A DNA stretch of 64,000 bases. It comes from Mizuhopecten yessoensis. Taxonomy: Eukaryota. The stretch is taken from the NCBI RefSeq assembly GCF_002113885.1, contig NW_018408551.1:328033-392032 (forward strand), given 5' to 3'. Position numbers and translations under genes: made by a program. Within the stretch, counting starts at the first letter, position 1, and every line of letters begins with the position of its first letter. The notes below the pieces were generated by a model. The model did no database searches. It saw only the letters and a list, made by a program, of their open reading frames with translations, and was not told the DNA's origin. Positions 21,227 to 50,500 of the stretch are shown piece after piece.

Positions 21227-21592
21227 CTGCCTAGTGTCGTTGCTTCTTAGATGAGTAATATTATATGTTGTTGATGGCAATGGTGTTGAAGGTTGTGTAT
21301 GTTGGTGTCGTTATCGGGGGCGTTGTCGTTGGTGAGCACTGAGGAATATCCGCTATATTTATATAATCCTGTCCTCTAGACATTCCACAGACTAAAAGCA
21401 GATTTGCCAATGTGCTAATAGCTTTAATATAAGAGTGTCACGGTATCAATTTGTTTTAGGGAAACACTTTGAAAATATGACGGATATCATAAAAATGCCA
21501 CCCTAATATATAGCTCTAACAAATTATCAGGTCCCCGTGAATAAAATATCACAAGTTATGGTGTAGAACACTAAGCATGAGTACGAAGAGGT

Positions 21593-22517
21593 TTCTTCTT
21601 CTTCTTCTTCTTCTTTTTCTTCTTCTTCTTCTTTTTCTTCTTCTTCTTCCTCCAAATCTTGAGTTGGCATCCCAGGGATGAGCGCATGCCGGTTGACAGT
21701 TAAAAATCTCTTGGGCAGTATATACAATTAGAAGTCTGATAGAATGAACTTATCCGGAAAGGCCTTGTGGCCTGCTGGGAGGCTGTTCAGCTTGGTCTAA
21801 AAGGCCGCCAGGGTTTGGCCAGTCGCCATCCCAGGTGGGAGGCTGTTCCACTGCTGTGCTGTTCTGGAGAAGAAGGATTGTTTGTAGCATTCCTTATACT
21901 GCACACAGTCTATGAGATCGTTGCCACTTGAGGTATATTTATCAGCTTGGATTTCCACCAGGTCGTTCTGGATCTTGTACATCATGGTCAGTCGAGCTTT
22001 GGATCGTCGTAGCATCAGACTTTCCCATCCGAGTTTTTGAAGGATGATGGTGACTGTGCCTTGTGTATATGTGTGGAACTCTACCGTGACAAACCTGGCT
22101 GGTGCTCTCTGTGTCTTTTCAATGGTGTTACTCAGGTTGGTTGTTGCTGGGTCCCATACTGTTGACGCATTTATACTCGGAAGTTGGTCGCACGATAGTT
22201 TGATAGGCAGCTTCATTGCCAGGCTTCTTACAATTCCGTAAGTTCCTCTAGATGAAACCAAGTGATCGTGAAGGGCTGGCTATGATGTTATCGTCATGGT
22301 AATTCCACCGTAAGTCTTCACTCATGGTCACTCCGAGGTACTTGCTCTTCTCCATCCTCTCAAGAATGTTGCCATGAAGAGTATAGTTGGTGATTGTAAG
22401 GCGCCGTTTGTTGCTGATATGGAGGACAGTACACTTTCCGGATTGAACGACATCTGTCACATGTGCTCCCATCTTTCCAAGGCTGTCAAGTCTTCCTGCA
22501 ACGCACGGGCATCCTCT
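21593..22517 (-). mobile_element. Non-LTR retrotransposon (LINE, CR1/L2-Jockey-group-like), 3' part with (GAA)n tail
   Basis: Degenerate RT C-terminus: EDARALQEDLTALERW, KYLGVTMSEDLRW, VWDP, QRAPARFV, LGWESLMLRR..RLTMMYKI, SFFSRTAQQWNSLP. The (TTC)n tail at 21593-21650 abuts the host exon. Confidence 0.9.
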
Positions 22518-23000
22518 TAGTCCGAATTATTCTGACGTTTTATCAACTTTTTTCATATCGGTCTGTCGTCGATTAACATCAGAACTCCGGCCCTCTATAA
22601 TATGCGGGAAATATGCGACCCGCGCCCGGAGCGCACTTCCAACTGATATTTTAGAAACAAATCGTCACTTTCACACACATGTCGCACATGGATCGAAAGA
22701 TCTATTCTTTATGCACAAGATGAACATACATAACATGCCCCAAACAACCAATACAATCACTAAAAACATATTTTTTCAAACTTACTCTGCTTTGTTTTTT
22801 ATAGCCCCGCCTTCTAATGCCACATGACTTAAATCTCGCCGGTCTACGTCATAACTCAATCGCAACTTCTCGGCCAATTCCGGCTAGGCGCGGAATGATT
22901 CCGCGCCTAGCCGGAATTGGCCGAGAAGTTGCGATTGCGTCATAACTTTGGGAAATACCTTCGGTAACGCGGGATCTCGTCAAGTCATGTGACATTGCTC
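22518..23000 (+). mobile_element. Left arm and interior of a long-TIR DNA element (MULE-like, 9-bp TSD)
   Basis: The 199-bp arm 22518-22716 (tagtccgaattattctgacg...) is nearly identical to 24317-24515. It is preceded by gcatcctct (22509-22517), the reverse complement of agaggatgc that precedes the other arm. Confidence 0.75.
22857..22937. mobile_element. 81-bp perfect-palindrome mini-insertion with 10-bp target-site duplication
   Basis: 40-bp arms caatcgcaacttctcggccaattccggctaggcgcggaat / exact reverse complement around a single G (22897). Flanked by direct repeat cgtcataact (22847-22856 and 22938-22947). Confidence 0.85.
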
Positions 23001-23951
23001 ATGGCCTAATTTCCATTAAAAACATGGGTTGGTATAGTTACTGAAATGTCTGCTTTAGAAGATTGTATATATATATTACGAGAATACCAGAAATCGACTA
23101 TCTCAATATTGTTTTCATGAACTTTTGAAACCGAATTTAAACACAAAAATAGGATTTAGTTTTTGTGTTTGGGAAACATAATTTGAAAATCTTACCATTC
23201 TTTTAATATCTTTAATTGATGATATTTGTCCGAAATTCCAATGACAAGGGCACAGTTATGGAGCTCAACTTCAAAGCTATTATTTTATCAAGGGATCATG
23301 TGCCTCCGGAGAAACGATTGTCATGGAGTCTGTGTTTGCCTACGCCAAGCCGTTATCATCTGGCTGTCCAACAGTTATGACGTCACCGACCGTGCCCTCT
23401 TAATGTTGCACGTTCGAGAAGAACGACTTTGGAATGCAGTATGAAGGACATACTTCGATAATTGTATAAGAATTGTGACGGTAAAACGACGTGCATTACG
23501 ACGCCCGTTTCCTAGAACGGACTAATTACATGATGGCCCGTGTCTAATGGGCAGTAGGTATGTATGATTTAGTAAAAACTATAAACTAAACCCATATTAA
23601 GCGAAATAGAAGAAATCTGAAGAGACTGGTTAAGGTTATACTAAACATAAACGGGTTGTTATTCAATCAGACCATTCAAGAAGCAAGCTTAAGTGACATT
23701 TTGTCTCGTTTTGGTAATGTGAATTTTATTTAGTTGTTTCATTTCATCACGAAAGAAAACTGTTCTCAATTGGAAAGTCCACACTTTTTATAACACATTG
23801 TAACTTGTATATATCTTTGTTGTTGAATAAGCCTCTCAATATAGTCCTGTTTCTGCTTAGAAATGACATAGATAAGTTGCAATGCAAGTACAACAGATGC
23901 AAAAGTGTTTCTTTGGAACACTGAATACCCAGATGGCAATATGACACGAAC

Positions 23952-24316
23952 TTATCACCACAGTTGACGCGATAGCTAGATGGAGTTTGTCAGCAGAACA
24001 GGTTGATGTGATCTTGTTGGATTTTAGCAATGTGTTCGACAAGGTCCCACACCACAGGCTGCTGCGTAAACTCGACCATTATGGGATAAGAGACACCACT
24101 CAGAAATGGATTGAGGACTTTCTTTTAGCAAGGACACAACAGGTTCTACTGGACGGTACAGTATCATCCACGGCAGACGTCATATCCGGAGTCCCCCAAG
24201 GGACCATTACTGTTTTAGGCCAACATAAATGACAAGCCTGAATGCAACACATCAAATGTTCGTCTCTTTGTTGATGATAACATCTTGTTTCGGCGCATTA
24301 GGAGTAGAGAGGATGC
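23952..24316 (+). mobile_element. 5' part of the same LINE, now inverted
   Basis: RT core: QVDVILLDFSNVFDKVPHHRLLRKLDHYGI..WIEDFL..RTQQV..SGVPQGT..RLFVDD..FRRIRSREDA. It continues exactly into EDARALQEDL of the minus-strand piece ending at 22517. Confidence 0.9.
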
Positions 24317-24580
24317 TAGTCCGAATTATTCTGACGTTTTATCGACTTTTTTCATCTCGGTCTGTCGTCGATTAACGTCAGAACTCCGGCCCTCTATAAT
24401 ATACGGGAAATATGCGACCCGCGCCCGGAGCGCACTTCCAACTGATATTTTAGAAACAAATCGTCACTTTCACACACATGTCGCACATGGATCGAAAGAT
24501 CTATTCTTTATGCACTAGGTGGTATCAATAACATGTTTCAAAGATCATTACGAAAAGTATTTTCCAACGTTTTCGAATGA
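24317..24580 (+). mobile_element. Second (inverted) arm of the long-TIR DNA element
   Basis: 24317-24515 matches 22518-22716 with about 4 mismatches by eye and is preceded by TSD copy agaggatgc (24308-24316). Confidence 0.75.
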
Positions 24581-26121
24581 TTACACACCATTGACCTTAT
24601 CGATTGGACTCGACTCGAGTCTATGAAATATATTTATATAAATATATATTTTGCTTTATTAAAAACATGTTTTTTCTACTTTCTAAGGTACGTATACGTT
24701 TAACGGTTTATAAATCAGTTTAAACACAATCATATGTTTGTTTATATATTGTATATAACTATGCATACCTTCGAGCTCATGTGGTTTAGAACATCACTTT
24801 ATCACAGACATTGGCAAATCTGTTAACCCAAAAGCTCGCATAAGTCAGTGTTAACGTTGTAATTGTTAAATATGGCTGACGAGCATAGGGACCAGCAAAC
24901 GTTGGGACACACACATGATAAATTGTCAGAGCAATCTTGCACGACATAGTGTTATAGGAATAAAATGTGATGTCCTCGCCAGCCTTCCCTTACATTATTT
25001 TTCCTATACTGTGTGATACTGTTATCAGAAACTTTTAAACGGAGACTATTTTGTTCCCTCTATTTTCTATTTGTAGTTTTTTTTATGCCACACACGAGGA
25101 AATCCCATTGAGCCGTGCACTTAGAACCTTCGTGTTACCCTGAACTAGGAAGTGTAATACATGTTTACAGGGAATGAGATCGCTAGTGGACACACCCTAT
25201 ACTTTGGTAAGTGTATATCTCTATTACTGAGAATGGGAAAGTAACCCACGTATTGAGGCCCAATTTAAAGGACACTGAATAATAATTATAAAACACAAGG
25301 GATAAAAATAAACCAAAGTCTTAAAATATCTGAGTTACTACCACTTTGGTGTAAAAAGTCTTTTCTGTCTTCTAATCATTACCTTTTGCACACAAATCAC
25401 TTTAGTCTTTTTTTGCAATTAGAATTCTTATTGGAGTGAAAGTACACTGTGAAATATACATTGTTACTTGCCGATTCACAGGTTTAAACAAATCCATACG
25501 TAACAATAAACAGTTGTATGCTAAGAGCAAATCTTTACAATTCATAGCTGTATTGTTACATGTACCAATTAATTAATAAACATGTCAATATTTATTAATC
25601 AAGCATTATACAAGTCACGATATATCCAACAACCAGAACCTGCTCGCATGACACCATATCGACAAAACTACGACTCCTTACACTACAGTGTGCTAGTCTA
25701 TGTACAAACGACAATGCTGCCACCACGAAAACACAACATAACTACGTCTGTTACCACAGTCATTATAATGCATATTCCAACCTTACTTGGCTCNNNNNNN
25801 NNNNNNNNNNNNNNNNNNNCCCCCCCCCAATGGGGAACCCCTGGAAAACCCATCAATCAGACGGCAGTATTCACGCACGTGATCAGACACGAATCTATGC
25901 TTCCCACTTCATAATTCCATCAGCCTTCCGTGTTTACGGACGTGTTTTGGTTTCTTCTACGGGGTTCCAACTGCTACTGGCGTTTTTTGTACCGATATAT
26001 ATTGTATCCTTTATACCAAATTTCTTTATTTTGTTTTAATTTAGCGTTTTGCTTTATTTTGCGCCGTTTTGCGACCAGGCTCCGGCCACGTGTTCGCGGT
26101 TGACGGTTTGTTTACTTTGAG

Positions 26122-28886: not shown

Positions 28887-29669
28887 AGGTGAGTTCCCTC
28901 TCAGCCTCCCCTTTTCTCATTGGCTCTCACTTTTTTGGGCTTTGGAATTATAAAGTGGGAAGCATGGCTTCGTGTCTTATCACGTGCGTGAATACTGCCG
29001 TCTGATTGGTGGGTTTTCCAGGGGTTCCCCATGGGGGGAAAAAATCTTTATTTACGTATGTGCATTATAATGACTGTGGTAAGTATTTATAATAGAAATT
29101 GGTTTCACAAGAGAAACCTCAAATGTGTTTTATAATGTTCTGTATACGCAAGTATCTAAAATAAATATACGATATTTGATATCTACTACAAAATGACACA
29201 CTCGTCGAATGCTAATAATTTCTATCGATGTCTTATGTTTAATAACTACGTTTACCACATATTGTCACCCTTCTAATTTGAAACACTCTCTGATTGGATA
29301 TCTTGCCGGGGTCTATATTTCTATAGAGCACTTGCGAGATAAACAAGCGCAATCGGGAACCGTCGGCACTTTCCGTAAACGAGAAAATACTAGTATTCTC
29401 GAGGTTTGCAAATCATTCACAGGATGAAATAGCTTACAAGCAATCTAAATCGACAGCAAATTCAACGAAACAGGTAATGAGGGGGCCGCTAGGTTGCTAA
29501 TTGTAAAGATGGTTGTGATTTGTCCGAAATATTGCCGAAAACTATTCAAAAGATGTCCGGTAGGCCTGGGGGTTATTTTGTTAGCAGTCAAGTACAACTA
29601 AAACTCACAAAGTGACTTATAATTTTGCAGGACAAAATGTAATAAAAGATCGCCAGGGTGACGAATTTG

Positions 29670-32503: not shown

Positions 32504-35500
32504 TCAACAGGTGTCCTCATTCATATGGGTGCTAACCAATTTGCCGTCGGCGGCATTGGTCACATCAATACACACAGTGTCCGACCGTCGTGGCCGGAAC
32601 GCTGTTATAACGTTAGTAAGTGTGCTCAAGGTGACTCTCCTGGATGGAGAGGGAAGAATCGAAGACCAACGATGTAAAGGTTGAGGGGACACTGGGTTCA
32701 CACCTTGCTGAGGTACGTCTGTGTCGAAACCTGAACCTAAGCTTTGCCCTAACCCACTGAGTCGTTTCTCTAGGGTCCGCTCCTTTGTTCTGATGCCTTC
32801 CAGCTTCTGTTCTATGGTAGCTTCTTTCGCTTGTATTTCAGATTCCCTCCTCTCAAGAGCTTCCTTTTTTCTCTGCAGTCTTCTTTTCTTCCTTTTCGCC
32901 TTTTCCATATTTTTACGGAAAGCCTGTTCTGCCTGAAACAATGCGATAGGAGGCAGGCGTTTTGGATTGAGAGGGGTGGAGTTAGCGTTCCTGTCTTCGG
33001 TTCCGTGTTTGTTACCCTCACTGAGAGGCTCTCCGGTACCCAGAAGTGCGATAGGCGGTAGTTTATTATGTGTTTTTTCCGGAAAGGGTGCCACGTGGTT
33101 TGGTTTTATTGTCGACTTTGGGGCTATCTGAGCTCCTGTTGGTATGAATCTGCCCAGAAGAGGGTTTTCAAAATTTGAACTCAATGACTTTTCATCTGAA
33201 TCTTGTTTCTGGAAAATGCAAAACAGTTTTGTTTTTATACGCCGTAGATATTTTCAGGGTGACCCACAAAATAAGTATTTTTCCTGACTATATCTTAATT
33301 TGTAACATCATATAATTAATCTATCAGGAATGAAAAGAAATAAGTTAGTTGGAAAGCATTCGACATATCCTATAGAAATAAGAAATCACCAGTATTTCAC
33401 AAAATATTCCGTTTTTCGGTAAGGTACAGTGAAAGGTTGTGGACAAATATTTCATTGTGTTTTAATAATATATAACAAATAACGATGTTAATCTTAAACA
33501 ATTATTATGGTTGAAATCGACACAAGTCACAGATAATAAATCGTTATCATCATCTGCCGAAATGAAATTGACTGTTTGCAAGTTTTTTCTACATCGACAC
33601 CTACCTTTTCTTTGCAGCAACGTTCTTTTAGTTTGTCGCGGCACAGAAGAAGGATCAGGATGATAACCAGTATGAGGACGACAATGACGACAACGATAAT
33701 CCAGATATCTAGAAAACAAGGAACCTGGACTATTTACAGGGACGGAAGGGAAGACGTAGTGGGAGTCATCAAAAAGAAAACGGAGACATCAAAAATAAAA
33801 CATCTCACATCACCACAGGGTAAAACATCACTATTTCCAACCAATGTGATTGAGGAAGAACTGATTAATTTTACCTTTACTAGATCGATCACTTAATGTG
33901 CATTGTTTAACATTTTTCTTCACTGACACTTTTTTTTTCACCCTTTTAATTCAATCACTTTACATTCAAATTAAAGAAAAAAGAAAGCCAAAATCCTTAT
34001 TCATTCATCAATACAAAGTATTGTATGTACAATATAAGAAAACTTAGTTGTAGATAGTCTTCTTTTTACAGTTGACATGCACACCTGCGTCAGACCTCAC
34101 TACATTATTGCCATTTAACATGTATCCTTCACATAACATAATGTAAATAACACGGAAATTTCAATACAAGGTGATGAAAAACTAAACTAAAATACAAAGG
34201 ATTTGAGCACACTCATTTGTTGGAAATATATGAACCTATGTTAAATAAGCGTTAACCAATGAAGCAGTCGCCTCTTGTATTTTTGATCGTAATCTATTTT
34301 GTTAAACAGTGTGTTATTGACTATTTCTGTTTTTTTCTTATCGTGTTCAGGTCGACTTCAAGAAATAGTACTTCTGTCTTACATCTCAATGTATAATAGT
34401 CTACCGTGTTTATGAAAAACAAAGGTTGCACTGTAAAGACTGACTGAGGAGTGCAAATGTTTCCATCTGGCAGTATCGATTGAGAACTAATAAGTGATTG
34501 TGATACAAGTAATGGGAATCTATTTTCAACACATATGCAAACAACTGAAGACAAGAAACATCTTGGAGCTATTTGCAGCAGTGATGGGAAATGGATAGAA
34601 TATATATAGATGACATTGTTCGTAAAGCTTCCAAATAAGTTGCAAAAGTAACCACGAATGAAGTTTTGTTCACCAGTATACCAACAAGAATATGTATGAG
34701 ATATGATAAAAAAAGAAACAACAATAAAAACTAAGCAATACTATTCTGAAAGTAGTACAAAGGGTGCCAGACCAGAATTCGATCACTGGACCTTCAATTT
34801 AAATACGGTCGCTCAACCCAACGGAACCTCTTGATAAGTAGTTTATATCTAGCCCTTTCCAGTTTTATATTTGGAACGAAAGTAAAGGGAGGTCATTTTG
34901 AGTATGAAAAACAGTATTCTCTAGAGTTTGCAAGCAAAGGGACATGAATTCTTAAGCAAAAATGATTTGATGAAATATTGCATTTCTTGCTCGTGACAAT
35001 TAATTTGTGGGGACGCCAGTTAATCAATAGTTGAAAAAAGTCAGTTAGAAGCTGGTTGATCTGTTACACTGTTGCCCTTTAATATCCAAACTGATTTACA
35101 ATTCTCTTTTAACTCTTTCCGTACCGCAACTCCGGTCCGGATTCCGTACCGGATGTACTTATTAGACTCGCCCCCGCGCATTAAACAAAATGGCGGATTT
35201 TTAATGTACTTTTTTAACTAGGTGTAACTGCCGCAAGAATTAAACAGGTAACCGTGAACAAATATTGTTATTGTTTCATGTTCTGGTTCATAGACAAACA
35301 CTTCTTCATTTTCGCAGCATAATGACTAACTGGCAGATGATTATGACTGAAAAATCGACATTTGTCTGGCAATAAACGATACGATTCCTTGTATTTAATA
35401 CAGCGTTGTAGTACATGTTTCCAATGGGGTTTGATTATGGTTACGAATGTGGAGTCGTTGAGTTTTTTTCTAAATACAAGTAGATTTCATCAAAACTTAT

Positions 35501-38500
35501 ATTAGAATATTCAAATTTACTTCCATAAGTCTCAACAAATATCTGATGATGAATTTACGAGTGTTCGTATCGAATTAAGTTGCCGCCATCTTGTTTACAT
35601 TTGAGGCACCAAACGCAAACATCTTACGGCAAATGCGAAAACTTTAAGTCACATAATAAAAAAGTGTGCTCTGCACAACTAAAATTCTTTCTTCCAAACT
35701 GATGGGTTCTGATTTTAGCGACAATTAATTGTTTTGTCGCGACTGTCTCGTGCGATAACCAACTAAACATAAGACAGGTTACGTCAGCGTCTCTTGTCGT
35801 GTGTACACGACAACAGGGATGAGACGGCCCATTATTTTGTCGTCTGTACACGACAACGGGGACCAGGATGACATATTGTTGTCGTGTGTACACGACAACG
35901 GTACGGAAAGAGTTAAGACGGCAGATTCGTTAGTTGTCGATATTTTATACAACAAATATGAAATTTAGGCCACTAATTATTGGAAAGATACCTTGATAGG
36001 ATTTAACGAATGTGCAACAATAAGATATTTAATTATCGATTGCAAATAATGCAAAACTCTCGTTTCTTCATCAATTATTAGAACATGAAGTTATCTCGAC
36101 AAATATATCAAACCATCCGAAATTTTCCACGTCTAAGATCATAATATTGTAGTTCAGCGCATGGACAAAGTAGTGCCAGTTTATTTGTTTTATTAATTAA
36201 AAGTTTTAAATGCGATGAGAATATAAATGACAAAATGATCATCTCAAATTCATTCATTGCGTAATATGTAATGGTTACACGGTTATTCTCGAAGAGGACT
36301 TTGCTTACTTTGTAAAACTTCTGTCCGAAGCGTTTGCGAAACATTTGTAACAACACAATATGTTTAAATAAAAAGCTTACATGAATCCTCCCCGGCGGTA
36401 CCACTTCCGGCGGCTGGCGTATTACCGGTCCCAGGGGTGCTGCTTCTTGGACTTGTGACATGATCTGTTGTTGGTATTGTGGTTGGCATTGGTGTTGAAG
36501 GTTGTGTAGATGGTGGTGGTGATGTTGATTCTGGCGTTGTGATCAATGGCGTTGTCGTTGGTGAGCACTGAGGAATATTCGCTTTATTTATATAACCCTG
36601 TCCTCTAGACGTTCCACAGGCTAAAGTCAAGTTTGCTAATGGGTCTATAGCTGTAATATAAGACAGTATCAAGGTATCAATTCTTTTCAGGAGTTAGAAT
36701 ATTGTAAACAAAATTATGTTACAGGTGGGTTTTTAATTATAAGTTTTTTTACTTTCGTACTACATTTTCTTATCATGATGCATTTTACAGCATTTTTTTT
36801 TTTTTTTATAACAAAGTACACAGTAGATGTAATATTCAAGAGGAAGCATGATTAAATTAAACTAAACCTGTGATCAGAAGGAAGAATTTGCCAGCGTTAA
36901 TGCCAAGTGTGTTGTTCGCCTCAATTTCAAGATAGTAAGACTCGCTGTCATAGATGTAAGTCGGTATGAGGTCCGTATTTGATTCACAGCCAATGGAGGT
37001 CCTGTTTTCGCCATCTTTTATCGTCAATGATTGGCCACATACTCCGTTTTCAGAGATCAATATAAAATTAAGAGCACGAACGCGAAGTTGCGATACACAG
37101 GAAGCGGCCACAGAGCATGAGTACGAAGACATTTGTGTCATATTGCCATCCGGGTATCCAGTGTTCCAGAGAAACACTTCTGCGTCTGTTGTACTTGTAT
37201 TGCCACTGATTGTCTGTATGTCGTTTTCTAAGAAGAAACATGGAGATGATGAGACATTAATTCAACATCAAGAATATGTATTTTTTAGTTGTATTATAAA
37301 AAATGTACCCTTTTCTTTTTGTCGACAATTTTGATCATAATAAAAAACAAATCGAATTACATCATCATTACCTCACACGGCAAGAGGATGCCATGCCGTT
37401 TGTTTTTGTCAAATAGTCTGCTTGAATTAACATATCGGCTCCTATAAACCTATAAAAGTTTTGTTCATCTAACCCCTGCAAATATTTCTGCTTCTTCTTA
37501 TCATCATGATGTTATGATTTTAAATAAAACAACGTTTACCTGCCAAACAATAGAAATAGGCCACCATGTAGTTAGTCCGTTCTAGGAAAGAAGTAATACT
37601 GCAGTTCGGCGTCTCTACCCAGGCAACAGGCGTCGTAATGCACGTCGTTTTACCGTCACAATTCTTATAATATTCTTGATGACTATGTCCCTCATATTTC
37701 ATTCCACAGTCGTTCTCGTCGAACGTGCAACATGAAGAGGGCACGGTCAGTGACGTCATAACTGTTGGACAGCCAGACGATAACGGCTTGGCGTAGGCAA
37801 ACACAGACTCCATGACAATCGTTTCTCCGGAGGCACATGACCCCTTGATAAAATTGTCGTCGGTGTTACCGTAACAGGCAGAATAACTTTGAAGTTGAGC
37901 TCCATAACCATACCCTGAAAAAGAGAATTTCGGCGAATGGTGATTGCATTTTTCAAATCTAATTTACCAAACTAAGTGCAAATCGAATCATAATAACATT
38001 TGGTGAACACATTTCACGGAAAAGGTTCTTTGATAAAGAAATTGTACTTTCGATACAAGTACCTAACTTTGAATTTTATGTTAAGCCATTAAGGTACAAC
38101 TGAACAAATAGTTCGAAACGAATATGTGCCTTTTTCATTTATACCGTTAGATTATGAAATTCAGGAGACGAAAAAGGATTATGGTTATTTAAACTGCTTT
38201 ATTAACTGTATAACATATTGAACGTTAACGCATATACATATGCATTGGATTTCTGACGATCATGAAAATGTATTGTAAGAATTTTTTAAGAATGATTATT
38301 TACCTAATTTATTAACACATATTATAAGGTATCTGTGTATACACTTAAGTTCATGTGGTGTTCAGAATAGAAAATTATTATCAAATCTGCCAGCTGAATA
38401 AGAAGCAGTAACCTAAATAATGACCGTCAGAAAGATTATCTTACTGAGTCCTCTGCATGTTCTTGTGGTTCTAGATTTGAAACAGCATCTCATTACTTCC

Positions 38501-39520
38501 ATGATTGTATCAAATACACTGAAGATCGTATTGTACTTTTTCAGAATATATTCCATGAAACTCACAAACATTTGTCATTAGATGTCATGCTAAATGGTTG
38601 TGAGAGATGTGATGAAAATGAAAACAAACATATTCTCCAATTATATCCAATTACATTTTAAGTTCTAGAAGATTCAGGACATTTAACTTCAATTTTGAAT
38701 GAAATTTTATATTTTATTTATTAACACTTTATTTATTTATTTACATTTTATTTTTTCTCAATGTAATTCTTCTGATTTCCAAAAATGGTACATGAATATT
38801 AATATTAATATTTCCTATTTGTCTTCATTGTTTATTTCTAAATATTGTTAGTGAGGGGGGCTGGGGTTTAGTAGACCAGTTATACTATTTTATCAAAAAT
38901 ATTGGGAAACAACTACATAAATAAGAATATAAAGCTTTACAACATGTCAATTATATATATCTAACCTGTGTTTAATATGCATAAACTAAACTATTTGATG
39001 GGATTGAATTTCCAAACTCATCAGTGGATGGCCTTGTGTGATACAATGGACTTTTTGGCCTGTATCTGTTGGGTGCGGTAATTTAATCCCATCAAATGTT
39101 TATACATACAGCTCCATCAACAAATTATTTTTCTCTTCTCTTCATAGTATGTATATATATATAGTATATGTCTTTTTCGGTATCAAAATAAAAGGTTGGA
39201 ATTTAAACCATTATATTCAATTATAATAAAAATGAGTATTATTAGTTGTTTATCCTAATTTGATTATTAATTTGATAATACCAACTTATTTATATGTGTT
39301 TGTATGTGTTCTAATGTCTATGTCTATGCTTGTACCACTGTCTGTTACTATGTTTGGAAAGGGCTTAAATAGGCTATGCCTGCTGCCCAATCCATTTGTC
39401 CTTTGACAATAAAATTTATTGAAATTGAAATTAAGAAGCATGCACGATTCTGTCTGAAGGTGATGTCAATAACGGGTAGGTCACAAACTTAAATGAGAAC
39501 AAAATATGCGGCAAAGACAT
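32504..39520 (-). CDS. Copy B: type-I membrane protein, SUEL/Gal-lectin-like + CUB-like + Thr/Pro stalk + TM + basic coiled-coil tail (~637 aa)
   Basis: Confident in-phase exons: 37914-37540, 37227-36868, 36650-36381, 33708-33605 (YIWIIVVVIVVLILVIILILLLCRDK), 33208-32504 (stop). Tentative 5' exons 39520-39489 + 38412-38345 give a hydrophobic leader MSLPHILFSFKLLLLIQLADLIIIFY. Same downstream exon phases (1,1,1,1,0) as copy A. Confidence 0.82.
35113..35912. mobile_element. Non-autonomous piggyBac-type MITE (800 bp) in copy B intron
   Basis: TTAA on both sides (35109-35112, 35913-35916), 14-bp TIRs ctctttccgtaccg / cggtacggaaagag, and three subterminal quasi-palindromes ttgtcgt(g/c)tgtacacgacaa near the right end. 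Confidence 0.88.
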
Positions 39521-42358
39521 GATAAGTTGTCAGACCGACTCCAATACATTTCGTGTATGCTGTATAGTAGTGGTGTACTCGCCAGCCTTCACTTTTGTTA
39601 TTGTTCACAATGAGTGTGACGTTGTTCCTACACTACTACATATTTGTATTTCTTTTTTATATTTTAAAGGTTTTGTAATATATCGCACGTGAGGTCTTTT
39701 CTTTGAGCCGTGTACTAGGTACCACATTTTCACCGTAAACCAGGAAGTGATTCACATGTAACCAGGGCAACTACCTGCCATTGACACTCCTTATAACTGC
39801 TAGGAAGCTCATTTTAAGTCGTTTATTGGTAATCATAAATTACATTGAAAACAAAACAAATAGAGTCTCTAAATTACTACCATCCGGGCAAACTTGTGCA
39901 TTCAATTCATATCAAATTGCACCTGATTAAATGCAATGTTTAAATTACAGAACTTAATGCACATAGGTATATAAATTCGTAATACTAGCTTATCAACACT
40001 AGCAAACAATTTACCTACTAATCATTAGCTGCAACGATAGGTACTTACCGTTAAACAGTTTTATAAAACGGGAAATCTTACTAAACGTCAGTAACTATAT
40101 ATAATAAATGGTTGTTTGTGATTAATGAACTTAACCAATTAACAGTTTGTACAACAGTTGTATACGAATAAATAATTACCAATTTACAGTGGTATACAAG
40201 TATAAAAATCAATTCGTATAATTTACAGTGGTATACAAATCAGTTCTTACCAATTTACAGTTGTAGTAAGAACACCTCATACCAATTAATAGTTGTATTG
40301 TTACTTAATGCTTATAAACATATCAATATTTACCAATGAAGAATGGGATGCACGTCACGATGAATCCAACAATCAGGAGCCGATTACATGGTGGCATATC
40401 GGAGAAACTGCTAATCCTTACATGTAGGGCAGTGACAAACCAGAAGGCTAGTCTACGTACACACGACCATGCTCACACCCATACTACACACCATAACTAC
40501 TCCCACTGTCGACTGTGTAGGGTTTTGTTCAGTATATTTAAACGGATATACGATACTTACGGTTAATTGGGGATGTGCACGTACAGCAAGATGTTTTTAA
40601 TTTTCAGAGCAAAACTAAATGTGCATATACTTTTGAATACACAATCAGTCCCTATTCAGAGTATATGTGGTGGTGCATTGTTGAGTAGGTCTTGGCATCA
40701 ATATTAAAATCTATAGTATCACCGACATGGAAATTCTGATATGTACAAGTACAAAGCGAGTTAAACGTATAATGGTATTGCGTATATCCTGGTAACAAGT
40801 TGGTGTGTAGTGGTTAATAGTCAACTACGACTGATACACAGTCAGTTCAAACAATCTGAAAATGGGTCGATAATTCAATCTTTCAGATCAACACTGATTA
40901 TTTGTTTTCCTGAACAGTGGGATTAGTCACGGGATTCGGGCAATTAAATATGATGATCCTAGGAACATTATACATGTGTATGTCTATATACCATGCCTAT
41001 AAGTGCCCTCTTCTAACTATAATAAATAGTTTACATACGTCATATTGTAGTAATGATAAAGTATATGTATATGTTTTGATAATTGCATGTCATTATGTTT
41101 TGAAAACTGTTTATACAGAAACTAGAATACTTATTTTCATATTGATAACGAGTCTTTGAAATCAGTAAAGAAGGCATGACAAAATACTGATGATCTATAA
41201 AATCTTTTCAGTTTTAGTAATATCTTTACAACGAATACATCGATACGTATCTCTTCTTCAATATTGAATAAACATCACATTTTACAGATAAACGGAAGAA
41301 AGGTAACCGCTAATTGCAGATAACCTCATAGAGTAAAATGACAATCATACACTGTAACCAGAGTAGTAAGAAGCCTCCCCAATTGAAAACCATGGGGTTT
41401 TAGTGTGTTAAACATCGTGTGGATGTTATAGGCAAACTTTCCTGGATTTGTGCGTACAGGAAAACATTATTTCGAAGTAACTGATTTTATCGCCGAGTTT
41501 TGGCGTCATGATGCCAACCCTTTTTTTCGGTCACTTCAATTCATATTGGTGTTAACCGTATCACCTAACAGTTTCGATTTAGTCTTTTAGTATTGATTCC
41601 GTAGTTTATTTTTTATTTTACCTTAGGTCAAAGGTACCATGCCGCAAATCTTCGCTCTTTTTTCCTGTTAAATCGGATAACTCGTATTTTTCTTATATAG
41701 CAAACGTGATTACCTTTCCGTTGTGGAAGTAAAACGTGTCAAAGATGTACAATATAAAATAAGAATTTCATCTTATTTTCTTATATGCCGTAAAGAATTC
41801 GGTATTATACATAATGTTAATATATACAGACACGTACAATGTAAAACGTGGTCGGACAAGCAGGTAGACAGGTAAAAGCTGACAGCCAATCAACCTCTCA
41901 ATAAAGTGAAAGTATATTTCGAGAATTCTTAGAGCAATGGAATGCGCTTAAGGAGGAAAAGAATCTGTCCACCAGTTACGAGGCTTTTACTTGACGGGTG
42001 AGAACTGAATTTTCTAAGAGTAACACGCAGAAAGTTTATTGTGTTAACATTACCTCTGACCCAGTCGAAGATATATTCGTTTGGTTTTGCTCTCGTGACA
42101 TCTAGTGAATTCGCTTGTAAATAAAAATAACGTTAACATGGCCTTAACCCTGCCTCTGCTGGAATAAGCAGCTGTGGGGAAAAGGTCGCGCAAGGCTTTA
42201 CTTGACATATATATAAGTAAGCTTTTTAAACCAATATCCTGATAGTATTTATGGAATATTACGACTGCAGTTTTAACCACATTTTCTCCCACTTTCAACC
42301 AAGCAGCTTCACATGATGCTATCCCTATGATTTGACGTACGTATACATAATTCGATGT

Positions 42359-44544: not shown

Positions 44545-47500
44545 CTAGGTCACTGTAACCACGTCTATAGTTACAGATGTAGACTTTATAGATGTCCTAA
44601 GATCATCGATCTGTGTAACCTCAAACGCATCATTTTTCTTCTTTTTGTCACCTTTGTGCTTCCTTTTCTTCTTGTGTTTATGTTTACCTGTCTTTGTACC
44701 TTTTTGTGATTCTGCCTTTCCCCCTTTCCCCTCAGAAATTGACGTTTGGGTAATTGGAGAAAGTTTCTGCCTTCCATTTAAAGCAGGAAGAGGGAGAGAA
44801 CTCATAAATTGGGACACAGGGGCCACTTGAGATAATACCGGTTTCTCAAAGGAGGCAAATAGAGCACATTCATCCGATTCAGGAGGGCTCGTTTCTGTAT
44901 CGGGATGTATAGCAGACTGGAATGAAAACAAATGCATATATTTTCGAAAGCAGTTGTAACAAATACATGAATAAATGCATAGAAAATGTATGGAGTATTG
45001 TCATTGGCTTTTCTACAGAACGGGTTTAATAAAGAACGGATATATAATAATTTATATATAATGCATAGTTATAAATCTTGGCAAATCGATCATCGTACCA
45101 TTGATGCTACAATTTAATGACAACATTGTCTGGCAACATTCTTCCTCTGCATCGGGCTTGCATAACATGAAAAGTTTGATGACCGAATCGTGAATGAGCT
45201 ACTTAATAAACAGGCAGGCATAATATGAGTGGGTGGTGGTCTCCTTGTAAGAAGATTGAAAGATTTGTCTCACAGGAAACAAGCATGTTCTACATAATTT
45301 GCGAGTGCTTATTATCTCAAACAACCAATGTTTACAAACATCGATACTTACCTTGCACTTTTTGAAATACAGGTCCTTTATTCTATTCTTGCAGAGGACC
45401 AATACGATAAGAATCACAAAGAGTACCACCAGAACGACAAGAGGGATGACCCAGAGAGCTTGAAAAGAAACAGGATAGAAATCATTAATTTTGACGTCTA
45501 ACTTTAGAGGATTTGTTAAAAGCAACCAATGATGCTATCTGAACAAATAGAAAGCGCTTGAAAATATCCATTTTTTCTTAAAGTGTTTTTTTGCACAACT
45601 GCTATACGTTTTGTAACACTTGGCCATTTTCAATTGATTGGGTCTCACTGTGTAATTAGTCTACGTGGAATGACATGAAGAAACTTTGTGATGTCATACT
45701 TGAATTGGGATGTCATATTTTACATAATATATAACGCATTATCAGCGGATTCTTTGGCACCAACTTCTGACAGCAGACTGTATTACGTACGCCGTCATCC
45801 TTCTGTAAAACATCTGAAGTTCGGGTCGGAGAAAACTTTCCAAAATATGTTCATCAAACCATGCGATTGGTAGCAGAAAAGATGGGTTCTTTGCAATTTT
45901 GATATCTTATGGGAGAAACGAGATATGTTGAAGTCATATCGAAACTCAAATTTTCCTTTTCAATAGACAATTCTTAAATTGATTTAATTCTACAATACAA
46001 TCACATGCGTCGTTGATATTTAGCAGAAACAAATTTTAACATTCCAATAAATTAGAGAGTTGAACCATGTCAGAATAGAACTTACGTATTCCTCCTTCAT
46101 CTACTGGTAATTGTGTTGGTGCTGGGGCTAGAACATTTGGTGTTAGTCCCAACGAAAGCGTTGTTTTGATGTTATTGTGAGAGGATGTTATTGTTCCGGT
46201 GTTATTGTCAGTGGTGTTGCCAGTGGATACTGTTGTTGTATCGGTAGTATCGTCCGTGGATGTTGTTATGTCAGTGGTGTTGCCAGTGGATACTGTTGTT
46301 GTATCGGTAGTATTGTCCGTGGATGTTGTTATGTCAGTGGTGTTGCCAGTGGATACTGTTGAGGTATCGGTAGTATTGTCCGTAGACACTGTGGTTGTAT
46401 CGGTAGTTTTGTCCGTGGTTGTTGTTGTATTAGAACAAGCAGGCAGATCTTCAGCCGGTACCTTTCCTTCCCCTACAGATGTTCCACACGCTAACGTCAC
46501 AGTATCATCACCATGGTCGCCTGTATTATATATTAATCTTGAATCAGTAACATATACAGTTAAAGTACTTTTAAAAAGTACATAAAAAGGAAATGCATGT
46601 TGGTAGAAATTATAAAAGGTTGTCAAACAGAATATACCCGTTTTTACCGAAGATGTTAACAGTTGCCAATAATTTTAATTAACGCTATAGAAATGAAATC
46701 TTCAAGTTTTTAATAAGACACTATGAAAATATTAATCAACCTTAATCAAAGTATACGTACTTCCAATCTGGAGAAGAAAATACCCAGAGTCCGTATTCAA
46801 AGTGTTGTTTACTTGTATTTCGAGATAATGAGTATTGTTTCCGATATTCAGGTCGTAGGGAAGGTAGTTGGTGTTCGAATCACACATTAAAACTTGTGTG
46901 TTGGTTCCGTCTGTTATGGTCAGCGATTGTCCACAAATTCCCCCGTTTTCCGTAAAATTTAAATTAAGGGCTCGTATTTTGAGACTCGTGGCACACGATG
47001 CTGATACAGAACATTTGTATGACGAGTTTGCTGGCAAAGTGCCAGTGTCGTTGCCAGACTCATACCCAGGATTCAGCAGTAGGGCAGTAGTGGTGTTGAC
47101 ACTTCCGTCATCACTTACGTCCTTCACATCATTTTCTGAAAAGGAGATACACGTAAATCTTACCGACTTTAAATGCCCGAAGCGCTAAAACATCAATACT
47201 ATTGATTGTTAACATAGGGTTTCCTTTGTAACGCCAAATAAGAATTCATGGACAGAATATAATGAAAAATAAAACGTTGGTTAAGATCCTTTGTATCAAC
47301 TAAAGTCTAGTAACATCTTTTGATTTTTGCGCTTGATATTTATTAATAAATAATAATAATAATTCGGGGTTCTTTTTTACCGTTTTATCACAACCTAGTT
47401 CGTAGGTCGTCTCAAAGCGGTTCACACATTATTATCCGTGGTTATAGGGCCTTTGCAACCAGCCAATATCTTTCTCAACTCCATGGGGAGCATACAGCCG

Positions 47501-50500
47501 GAGCTGCCATTTCAGCGCTCAAAGCTAGCATTTAACAATTCTAGCACTGCCCAACCACATACTCATTTACAGCTGAGTCGACTGAAACAAGTGGAGTAAA
47601 GTATCTTGCCCAAAGATACAACACAGTGACGTGCCGTGAATCGAACCTGCAACCCGTCCGTCACGAGCCCGGCGTCCTACCACTAGACTACCGTTTATTG
47701 AGCTTATCAACCTATCTAATGATGGTTAAAAAATGTCGTTGTATTGTAAATTTCAGTATAGTCGAAATATATCTATGTGAAATATATCTTTGTGAAATAT
47801 ATCTATGTGAACTAATATGAAACTGAATGCCACATTATTTCTTAAAAACTAAAGAGAATAGCTGAACAATCAGATCTTTCCAAACACACTCCTATATCTG
47901 CACAAAAACGATAACTAGTTTAATGAGTTAAATAAGTTGTAGTCTGATTCAAGCCGAGTTCGAACATTTTTGTTTTATCATGAGTTGAGTTGAAATCGGT
48001 CTGAGTCGATCTCCAACGTTATTGGTATGAGATATGGTTATAACATTAATAAGAATACATTGTAAATATGAAATAATCCAAAATTTGCTTTATAATCACA
48101 AATAACTACATACACACCTGATATACAGTAAAAGTAGACCGCCATATAATTTGTCCGAGCGATATATATCGAGGAGTTACAGGGCGTGTTGGCCCAGGCA
48201 ACGGGCGTCCATGAACACGTGGTTCGGCCATGACAGTTCTCAAAATAAGTATTCTTGTTGAAGCCATCGTACTCAAATCCACAGTCGCCAGTATCGTACT
48301 GACAGCATGACTCCGGGGTAGTCGCTGCACTGGTCATAACTTGGGGACAATTTGATGACAAAGGTTTCGCGTAGGCATACACGGAATCCATCACGATCCT
48401 CTCGTCATCGCCGGGACAGGAAGCCTTAATGAAATTGTCTGTAGTGATCCCATAGCAGGCGGAGTATGTGTGACGATACAGGCCCAACACACCTTGTGAC
48501 CAGTAACAAAAAGACGAAGAAATTTGTTCATTTCAAGGATTTGAAAAAAAAAAGTTTCGCTAAGATATATCAATACGAACATTATATGCTTATTTCATAT
48601 AAATAATGTCTTCATATATATTTTCCAAAGTACACTTCATGTTCTCACTGTCTTTCGTGTATTTTGTATAATGATTAACGACAGGGAAATGTTACACTTA
48701 TTTTGATTGTACGCTGTAAAATATTTTATGATATCAGCATCAATGTACGACTTTAGGAGAGTAGTGTTTACCTTTAGGATAAAGTTAAAAACGTCCAATC
48801 GGTTGTCTCACATTTCTATTAATCTCTGGCAACTGTAGTTAATTAATATATCAAATCATATGAAATGTTAAGCTTAGTTTGCTTAGCGTGGTTAAAAACA
48901 GAAACAATTGAGAATTTGAAGGGTTACAATATAAATAAGTTACAATATTATTTCCTTTAATTTCGAAAAAAACTAAATACAAAAATTAAGGTATTCCTTT
49001 TTAACCATTACACCATTGAGTAATTCAAATCGGGATGCCAGGCACCTAGCATATTGGAATATTTAAAAATATTCGTATTTTTGAAGCAAAACTATTAAGA
49101 AATCATCTAGATATCTCAAAAAATATTTTGTAAAACTTACAATATTATAGATGTTGTTTATTTTTGGACATTCAAAAAAATATTTATCTTCTTAATACCG
49201 AAGAACAAGTGTTGCCTGGGTAGCAGCAACCTTTGGACCCATTGCTTAACCTTTTACGTTGTTTATAATGAATATTATCATGAAACATATTGATTCCAAA
49301 ATAATTTTCAATGCTTAAACGATGAACTGTTTATCATTCCTAGACATGATTATAGGGAATATTGGTATACAGACTGATCAAAAGGTACCAAGTCTACAAT
49401 CCCTCTTGAAATGTCTTTCCATTTTGAGTGCTGTTGAAATAAATTTACTTTTGTGTATCTTAAAATAACTCGCACGATTTTCAAAGTCTGCAAGATATTC
49501 AATTTCCTTATCTTTAAAATTTCCGTTTTACTCTTTACAACACTCGAAATAATTCTATGTCAGAAGCGATTTCTTTTTAGAACTCTTGTCATAATAATCC
49601 TAAGCATCCATTACAACAACCATACCACCTTCTTCTGCCTCCTTTATTACGATGGATTTATCACTCATTAATTATTGTGAAATTTTATGTTATTTATACG
49701 ATAAATAATTCGTAGTCTAATCTTATTAAATTGATATGTATTTAGATATGATATTGATTTCTCACATATTGTGGCGGATTCCATTTGAAATGATTTTTGA
49801 CTAACAAGATTTAAGATTTATTTATTCACTCATGACACACAAAGTGACCAACAAAAGGTCAACATCTTAATACATCTCAGTTACAGTGGGTCATCAATGT
49901 CCGCCGGAAGAAGCCCAAGAACTGAGGCAGAAAGCTAACGGTCACTTGATGTGGTTTCTAACTATTTCCCCCTGAGGTTGATAGTGAGTACATAAAACCT
50001 ATATAATATTCAGCGTGAAATAATGATCACATCTTAACTGTTTACCAATGATTGATTTAATCTTTATTGAAAAAAGCAATAACATTATGACATACAATTC
50101 ATACACAATGTTTCAATCCAATGTCTTTGAAGATAATGTTTGAAAACAAATGCATTTCGCCAAGTATAACATTTCCTCTTTTGAAAACATGAATGTAAAC
50201 CAAGTATATCATTTTATGTGTAAAAGAATAATAAGATATCAAGCCTAAAATATATCGTCCTTAGAAAATTATTAAATACAAAGCATAACATATTAATTCT
50301 ATGCTGAACAGAATAATTAAATACCAAGCCTTTGCATATTTCTTAATGAAATACACTGATAATTTTCTGGGTTTGATGATAAAAAAAACCCAAAGTGACG
50401 TTTAGCGTGTAGTGTGAATATTTTGATATTTCTTACCAGAGCGTAGCACCAAACGAATGAAATGTATTTCTTGTTCACAAGTAAACCAAGAATATTCTAT

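What the first reader, a model, noticed from the sequence alone, without database searches (positions are those of the whole stretch)
21230..25205. Reconstructable four-step destruction of paralog C: LINE, then TIR element, then hairpin, plus an inversion with an inverted TSD
Seen: (1) a (GAA)n-tailed LINE splits the CUB-like exon (..gatggcaatatgacacgaac | LINE | ..ctcttcgtactcatgc; copy B reads these halves contiguously). (2) The LINE RT is split at ..RSR-EDA / EDA-RALQEDL with agaggatgc duplicated, but the two TSD copies are in opposite orientation (22509-22517 vs 24308-24316), and the two 199-bp terminal arms are now direct repeats. (3) The lectin exon, the 5' CUB exon part and the 5' LINE part lie on the plus strand, while flanking parts of the same gene (21230-21590 and ~24770-25205) keep copy B's minus orientation. 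Inference: a ~1.5-kb inversion (breakpoints ~23000-23100 and ~24580) with one end inside the TIR element. It arose either after insertion or by alternative (reversed-end) transposition. Near-identity of the arms suggests it is recent.
Basis: partly seen in the sequence, partly recalled or inferred. Interest (0 to 1): 0.7.

Follow-up and report, generated by a model that had tools for sequence, protein, structure and literature searches.

The report
Inversion splits a nested scallop transposon
A dead, partial copy of a scallop gene holds a retrotransposon, a DNA transposon inside that and a hairpin remnant of a second DNA transposon inside that, and a 1.5-kb inversion has cut the middle element in two, likely by ordinary break-and-rejoin repair rather than by a transposition error.

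Summary
The anatomy is confirmed. The two arms are halves of one 693-bp DNA transposon (1,363 exact tips genome-wide) inside a LINE inside a CUB exon. The inversion is 23038-24574: the halves rejoin at element base 436 with nothing lost and one shared base. Contigs of 7 of 7 laid runs (4 studies) cross the left junction and 4 of 4 the right, so misassembly is unlikely. Alternative transposition fails: neither break is at a transposon tip and no new target duplication exists. Arm identity does not date the inversion. 'Four-step destruction' overstates: the copy also lacks its membrane and tail exons, carries stops and deletions, and likely died before the DNA transposon arrived. Both DNA elements derive from AcademH-type (transposase plus helicase) families. 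The 81-bp hairpin is a TIR-only remnant. Such remnants are common, mostly uniquely joined, and stop at family-specific lengths (about 60 nt of a 205-bp TIR), so they may be excision scars; this scan noted the same in a mussel (e1-9876373). The inner family favours promoter-like sites and hit this same base twice. Verdict: ordinary inversion, useful side evidence on AcademH.

The parts
21230..21430 (-). Copy C Thr/Pro-rich stalk exon (last exon of C that can be found)
   Evidence: 76% to B 36477-36691; tblastn
21460..21573 (.).
   Evidence: alignment; block ends
21574..21591 (-). 3' remnant of the CUB exon beside the LINE tail
   Evidence: 16 of 16 to B 37114-37129
21592..22517 (-). LINE 3' part with (GAA)n tail (about 21592-21652); ends in the left copy of the 9-bp TSD (22509-22517)
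   Evidence: 79-83% to four relatives
22518..23037 (+). Left part (bases 1-436) of the 693-bp non-autonomous AcademH-type element; TIR 22518-22722
   Evidence: alignment with 7 whole copies; long relatives L091, L096
22847..22947 (.). 81-bp TIR-only hairpin (22857-22937) of a second AcademH-type family between 10-bp direct repeats CGTCATAACT (22847-22856, 22938-22947)
   Evidence: long copy G000:C4519:272743-282697 encodes DUF6589 and Helicase_C
23038..24574 (+). Inverted segment, 1,537 bp: intron, Cys-rich ('lectin') exon, intron, 5' CUB exon, 5' LINE, right part of the element
   Evidence: junctions in contigs of public runs
23249..23556 (+). Cys-rich exon of copy C with 27-, 2- and 37-bp deletions and stop codons
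23859..23950 (+). 5' part of the CUB exon, with a 5-bp deletion
   Evidence: CUB fold of the B-type protein
23951..24316 (+). LINE 5' part (5'-truncated, inside RT); ends in the right copy of the 9-bp TSD (24308-24316)
   Evidence: RVT_1 E 9e-7, 29.2 bits, just under the 29.6 cut-off
24317..24574 (-). Right part (bases 436-693) of the 693-bp element, now inverted; TIR 24317-24521
24770..25745 (-). Upstream part of copy C, in B's orientation
32507..40500 (-). Copy B, the comparison gene: Cys-rich exon 37541-37915, CUB exon 36869-37228, stalk exon about 36382-36669, membrane exon 33581-33703, tail exon 32507-33241

Best explanation
A dead, truncated gene copy holds three nested mobile elements and a 1,537-bp inversion with one end inside the middle element, and the inversion likely arose from two DNA breaks rejoined in swapped order by end joining, without a transposase. 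Shown: a 5'-truncated LINE sits in the CUB exon; a 693-bp element sits in the LINE between 9-bp repeats; an 81-bp remnant of a second family sits at its centre between 10-bp repeats; the inversion came after the 693-bp element landed, because it carries one TSD copy and one arm with it. Inferred: both DNA elements are AcademH derivatives; the hairpin is more likely the shrunken scar of a longer element than a unit that moved as 81 bp (about 60:40); the gene was already dead when the DNA elements and the inversion came, so these events were likely neutral.
For: Halves join at base 436 with no loss and one shared base. No duplication over 1 nt on the element side, none on the intron side, and no real homology between the two break regions (best local scores 7 and 8). 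This break is unique: 1 match in the genome, against 1,363 exact tips. Re-inversion restores a direct TSD and order with B. Contigs start at 23008 and cross the left junction in 7 of 7 runs laid; they start at 24545 and cross the right junction in 4 of 4. No N lies at either junction. C has 12 derived amino-acid changes or stops against 2 in B among 98 codons, against 13 of 687 bases between the element and its family majority. Membrane and tail exons are missing.
Against: The junction contigs hold 30 bases on the element side, one short of the tool's 31-base rule for bridging; no raw or long reads were available. The intron side has no un-inverted template (B's intron does not align better than shuffles), so loss or gain of bases there is untested. 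The break lies only 90 bp from the hairpin's right TSD, which a coupled event would also explain. Runs were chosen as best holders, and one could stem from the source of the assembly. The repair pathway is inferred from the junctions alone.
Confidence: 0.8

Rival explanations
1. Excision of a full-length inner AcademH element at base 346 made a break whose repair left both the 81-bp hairpin and the inversion in one event.
For: The hairpin is a TIR-only remnant joined at 2 shared bases; 21 different joins in 26 copies. A long copy of the same family sits at the same base of another 693-bp copy. The inner break is 90 bp from the hairpin's right TSD.
Against: Both TSD copies and the 90 bp between hairpin and break are intact. 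The window's 81-bp join recurs in 2 other copies, so it may have moved as a unit. I did not test the other remnants for flanking inversions beyond a search for inverted repeats across the site (2 of 26 had one).
Confidence: 0.1
2. Alternative (reversed-end) transposition of the 693-bp element made the inversion.
For: One break is inside a cut-and-paste element and the 9-bp repeats are inverted.
Against: Such inversions have a breakpoint at an element end and a new TSD at the junctions (PMC8225341, passages). Here both tips keep their original LINE flanks, the break is internal and there is no new TSD. The inverted 9-mers are the old TSD carried along.
Confidence: 0.03
3. The inversion is an assembly error between the two near-identical arms.
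For: The arms are 97% alike, and several copies of this family end at assembly gaps.
Against: Neither junction lies in an arm; one side of each is unique DNA. Both junctions stand in contigs of runs from 4 studies.
Confidence: 0.03
4. Ectopic recombination between two inverted repeats flipped the segment.
For: A perfect 15-bp inverted pair exists at 21399-21413 and 24808-24822.
Against: That pair is not at the breakpoints. The two halves add up to exactly one element, not two, and the break regions share no homology.
Confidence: 0.02

Closest known systems
AcademH lineage of Academ DNA transposons (Kojima 2020, Mob DNA 11:15; not held; known from passages in PMC10045372, and PMC10799480, and from recall)
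   Same: 9- or 10-bp TSDs; long copies of both families carry a DEAD/Helicase_C helicase facing a DUF6589 gene.
   Different: The window holds only gene-less derivatives. That DUF6589 is the Academ transposase is recalled, not read in a paper. My searches found no account of TIR-only remnants or promoter-like targets for this lineage; the primary paper could not be checked.
Inversions by breakage and end joining (Ranz et al. 2007, PMC1885836, passages)
   Same: Two breaks, no inverted repeat pair at the ends.
   Different: No inverted duplication over 1 nt, so the breaks were nearly blunt, not staggered; the segment is only 1.5 kb.
Ac/fAc reversed-ends transposition inversions in maize (PMC8225341, passages)
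   Same: An inversion beside a cut-and-paste element.
   Different: No breakpoint at a terminus and no new TSD.
P-element excision ends and aborted gap repair (PMC2895639, passages); microhomology-mediated MITE birth (PMC3814204, abstract only)
   Same: TSD kept, both element ends kept, middle lost, joined at a few shared bases.
   Different: P leaves 17-nt tails; here arms are 25-57 nt (inner family) or pile up at 57-61 nt (693-bp family), and most joins are unique rather than amplified.

Membership tests
AcademH (hairpin family) | 9- or 10-bp TSD | tested here: met
   24 of 26 two-ended copies with at most 1 mismatch; 27 loci examined
AcademH (hairpin family) | Long copy encodes a superfamily-2 helicase and a transposase between TIRs | tested here: met
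   C4519 copy, about 10 kb, 60-bp TIRs: DUF6589 E 1.8e-20, Helicase_C E 4.9e-11, opposite strands; DUF6589 as transposase is recalled
AcademH (693-bp family) | 9- or 10-bp TSD and TIRs | tested here: met
   7 whole copies among 11 other loci: 9 bp in 6 (one with a mismatch), 10 bp in 1; TIR about 205 bp
AcademH (693-bp family) | Long copy with helicase and transposase sharing the ends | tested here: inconclusive
   2 of 20 DUF6589 loci carry the right end (360 and 267 bp, 94-95%), one followed by a DEAD motif (E 8e-4, under the cut-off) and both by DUF6589 with a PHD finger; no complete two-ended long copy was found
AcademH | Transposase groups with Repbase Academ sequences in a tree; catalytic triad | not testable with these tools
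   no Repbase library; primary paper not held
Alternative (reversed-ends) transposition inversion | Breakpoint at an element terminus | tested here: not met
   break at base 436 of 693
Alternative (reversed-ends) transposition inversion | New TSD at the junctions | tested here: not met
Ectopic-recombination inversion | Two inverted homologous repeats at the breakpoints | tested here: not met
Staggered-break inversion | Inverted duplications at the breakpoints | tested here: not met
   1 shared base only; intron side lacks an ancestral template
Non-LTR retrotransposon (LINE) | RT remnant, simple-repeat 3' tail, 5' truncation | tested here: met
CR1-like LINE clade | RT phylogeny | not tested
   label recalled from motif look only
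CUB-domain protein (host gene) | CUB fold | tested here: met
   model pLDDT 84; Z 11.8, rmsd 2.9, 114 aligned to C1s CUB2
SUEL/rhamnose-binding lectin domain (host gene) | Pfam match or fold | tested here: inconclusive
   no Pfam match; domain not folded alone

The most novel reading that the evidence does not exclude
The 81-bp hairpin is the excision scar of a 10-kb AcademH element. AcademH transposases nick one strand 45-60 nt inside each end, the RecQ-like helicase unwinds these long staggers to free the element, and end joining of the leftover tails leaves TSD-flanked, TIR-only hairpins of family-specific arm length. This would give the AcademH helicase a job, and here such a break would also have set off the neighbouring inversion.
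Probability: 0.3. Interest if true: 0.65.

Novelty: new member of a known kind. Interest (0 to 1): 0.38.

Why it matters
The inversion is a clean, base-resolved but likely neutral event in a pseudogene; it changes no model. It shows that an inverted TSD with direct-repeat arms does not by itself imply alternative transposition. The side results matter more: two AcademH-type families in one genome leave remnants that stop at fixed depths, and one favours CpG-rich, promoter-like sites. Both bear on an untested question, what the helicase of these transposons does and how they cut. The junctions also serve as PCR markers.

Tried and rejected
Alternative transposition, ectopic recombination, staggered breaks and misassembly: see rivals. 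Recurrent break at base 436: 1 match only. A pair of same-direction tips 6 kb apart on C414 is two 109-bp remnants with the same flank, not a second split element. Shared ancestry of the two insertions at base 346: the host copies differ at 26 of about 340 bases, share no derived change that I could see, and the window's TSD carries a private T in both copies, so likely independent; n is 2. Insertion at centres of foldback elements: only 2 of 26 sites had an inverted repeat across them, and the window's own site was missed by this test, so the test is weak. A fold of the element as single-stranded DNA put the break near the inner edge of the imperfect stem; not taken as evidence. No un-inverted joint and no LINE-free loose end appeared, but the tables are cut (3 joints, 330 and 53 loose ends not shown), contigs drop rare variants and runs were picked as best holders, so fixation is not shown. 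In X8 and X9 the left-junction contig has about half the depth of the next contigs; GC content differs (0.31 against 0.40-0.46) and a second haplotype is not excluded. Three one-armed copies (L004, L006, L012) were not long elements: two end at gaps, one is truncated. The intron across the outer break does not align to B above shuffles (92 against a maximum of 100). A near-length protein search found nothing. The ESM Atlas gave no answer. The AcademH paper is not held. No supplements were read.
Full report
Observation. The arms 22518-22722 and 24317-24521 are direct repeats of 205 nt at 97%, each preceded by one copy of a 9-mer, in opposite orientation. The stretch 23282-23950 matches copy B on the opposite strand while 21268-21460, 24770-25205 and 25474-25745 match on the same strand. 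A protein 100% identical over 73% of B's Cys-rich exon is labelled Mizuhopecten yessoensis, and its relatives Pecten maximus, so the host is a scallop. The B-type protein has a CUB fold (model pLDDT 84; Z 11.8), a Thr/Pro stalk, a predicted membrane helix and a tail. The lectin label is unconfirmed.

The middle element. A search of the own genome gave 42 matches from 40 scored of 1,723 candidates; the exact 20-nt tip occurs 1,363 times. Of 11 other loci read, 7 were whole elements of 683-694 bp with TAG..CTA-type ends and TSDs of 9 bp (6) or 10 bp (1). The window's left piece 22518-23037 is bases 1-436 and the right piece 24574-24317 is bases 436-693: one element, nothing lost, one shared base. 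The inverted segment is therefore 23038-24574, 1,537 bp. Re-inverting it inside a script gave an element with direct 9-bp repeats and placed the matches to B in order on one strand, apart from one weak 31-bp match.

Is it real? No N lies at either junction and the far side of each is unique DNA. Fourteen runs of 4 studies were listed and 7 were laid. In all 7 a contig starts at 23008 and runs to 23325 or 23357 with 0-1 other letters; in the 4 laid on the longer stretch a contig starts at 24545 and runs past 25400. These starts lie 30 bases inside the element, as expected where a unique path leaves a repeat in a 31-mer graph (my inference), but one base short of the tool's bridging rule. Contigs also cross the exon/LINE junction in all 7. 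No un-inverted joint was listed, but the tables are cut and the runs are best holders, so this shows presence, not fixation.

Mechanism. Reversed-ends transposition puts a breakpoint at an element end and makes a new TSD (PMC8225341, passages). Here both tips keep their LINE flanks, the break is 436 and 258 nt from the tips, and there is no duplication beyond one base on the element side and none on the intron side. The two break regions share no homology, and only one element's worth of sequence is present, which excludes ectopic recombination. There are no inverted duplications of the staggered-break type (PMC1885836, passages). No other copy in the genome leaves the element at base 436 by this pattern (1 match). 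Two nearly blunt breaks joined in swapped order is the simplest account; the repair pathway is inferred.

Age and 'destruction'. The arms differ at 4 of 199 bases, whole copies at 1-9; the window's copy differs from the family majority at 13 of 687 bases, whole copies at 6-21 of about 690. This is typical of the family and bounds only the insertion. Copy C's Cys-rich exon has 27-, 2- and 37-bp deletions; among 98 aligned codons, 12 changes are derived in C (3 stops, two of them next to indels or the exon end and so alignment-dependent), 2 in B, 6 are silent and 2 unpolarised. The CUB start has a 5-bp deletion, 423 bp of B after the LINE site are replaced by 114 bp, and B's membrane and tail exons have no counterpart in window 1-21300. 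C's branch is thus roughly 5% long against about 2% for the element, so C likely decayed before the element came. The LINE has 37 private changes in 618 sites, an upper bound on its residence; it may have been an early hit, but a partial duplication dead from the start fits too. Only LINE before element before inversion is fixed by nesting; the hairpin could precede or follow the inversion.

What the two DNA elements are. The hairpin 22857-22937 has a 10-bp TSD and belongs to a family with 71 exact tips. A copy of about 10 kb with 60-bp TIRs encodes DUF6589 and, on the other strand, Helicase_C. Of 27 loci read, 26 had both ends, 66-96 bp apart, 24 with a 9- or 10-bp TSD. For the 693-bp family, 2 of 20 DUF6589 loci carry its right end at 94-95%, one followed by a DEAD motif and both by DUF6589 with a PHD finger; no complete long copy was found. 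AcademH makes 9- or 10-bp TSDs (PMC10045372, passage) and carries DEAD/Helicase_C domains (PMC10799480, passages). I file the inner family as AcademH-type and the outer as likely so; DUF6589 as the Academ transposase is recalled.

Remnants. The 26 short copies show 21 different joins with arms of 25-57 nt; a few fits are poor. In the 693-bp family I looked at 68 loci from the first 100 listed tips (11 tips not fetched): 25 are two-ended and under 300 bp, 21 are longer two-ended copies and 22 are one-ended or unresolved. Of 44 arms in the 22 short copies, 2 were not measurable and 16 of the other 42 end at 57-61 nt although the TIR runs 205 bp; 4 run to 100-187 nt. TIR bases 13-67 fold into a stem-loop. 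Unique, often asymmetric joins with intact TSDs suggest that most remnants formed where they lie: by end joining of long excision tails, as with the 17-nt tails of P, or by aborted gap repair (PMC2895639, passages) stalling at the stem-loop. I could not check remnants in reads, so assembly collapse is not excluded. The window's join recurs in 2 other copies, so it may instead have moved as an 81-bp unit (compare PMC3814204, abstract). I noted this pattern before seeing the scan's unreviewed note on a mussel (e1-9876373), which is a lead and not support. Searches found no printed account, but the primary paper is not held.

Target choice. A long copy of the inner family sits at the same base (346) of another 693-bp copy on C76736; its other end falls in a gap. 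The host copies differ at 26 sites and the window's TSD has a private base in both copies, so the insertions were likely independent. Prompted by notes e1-9884696 and e1-9868766, I tested the flanks of 27 other sites: CpG is 5.1% near the sites against 2.7% far away, and AACCGG (7 of 27 against 5 of 231 control windows), ACCGGA, ACGAGT, ACGGAA and CGTCAC pass a correction for 2,080 tests. These look like promoter motifs (ETS and CRE names recalled); part of the signal may be CpG content alone, and a fixed distance was not tested. In long copy L096 this site lies at the start of the helicase frame, which may make it a favoured target.

Verdict. A real, base-resolved micro-inversion through nested elements in a pseudogene: a new instance of known kinds of event, likely neutral. 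Interest 0.38, mostly for the AcademH side evidence.

Noticed in passing
G000:C76736:108078 (L032, L054): A long copy of the hairpin family is inserted at the same base (346, the midpoint) of another 693-bp element; likely independent of the window's insertion.
   Followed up: yes
L106-L156 (693-bp family, many contigs): 25 of 68 loci looked at are short two-ended remnants with intact TSDs; arms pile up at 57-61 nt of a 205-bp TIR whose bases 13-67 fold into a stem-loop.
   Followed up: partly
L015-L081 (hairpin family flanks): Insertion sites are CpG-rich and enriched in CCGGAA- and CGTCA-type words; a weak palindromic preference (G at -5, T at -4, C/G at -3, A/T at -2) flanks the TSD.
   Followed up: partly
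G000:C76684:52983-67127 (L096, L103): Two copies of the DUF6589/PHD gene lie in opposite orientation between a full TIR and a 27-bp TIR tip, a rearranged long element of about 14 kb.
   Followed up: no
window 25751-25919 and 28943-29082: An inverted pair at 94-96% with a 26-N gap (25794-25819) in the left copy, about 3.2 kb apart, just upstream of copy C; possibly another TIR element.
   Followed up: no
window 21399-21413 and 24808-24822: Perfect 15-bp inverted pair; the exon copy differs from B at several bases. May be chance or a template switch.
   Followed up: no
window 44750-48500, 32507-40500, 21230-25745: Three tandem paralogs of a family with a Cys-rich domain, a CUB fold, a Thr/Pro stalk and a membrane helix; 112 relatives among cluster representatives, and no Pfam match for these two domains in the 30 proteins scanned.
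   Followed up: partly
L094, L097, L100 (G000:C736, C76720, C4672): A further DUF6589 family with 83-84-bp TIRs beginning CCAACTTCGCGAGCC and an internal extra copy of the TIR tip in two of them.
   Followed up: no
G000:C74853 (L051, L053): A small contig repeats copy B's exon; likely an uncollapsed allele of B.
   Followed up: no
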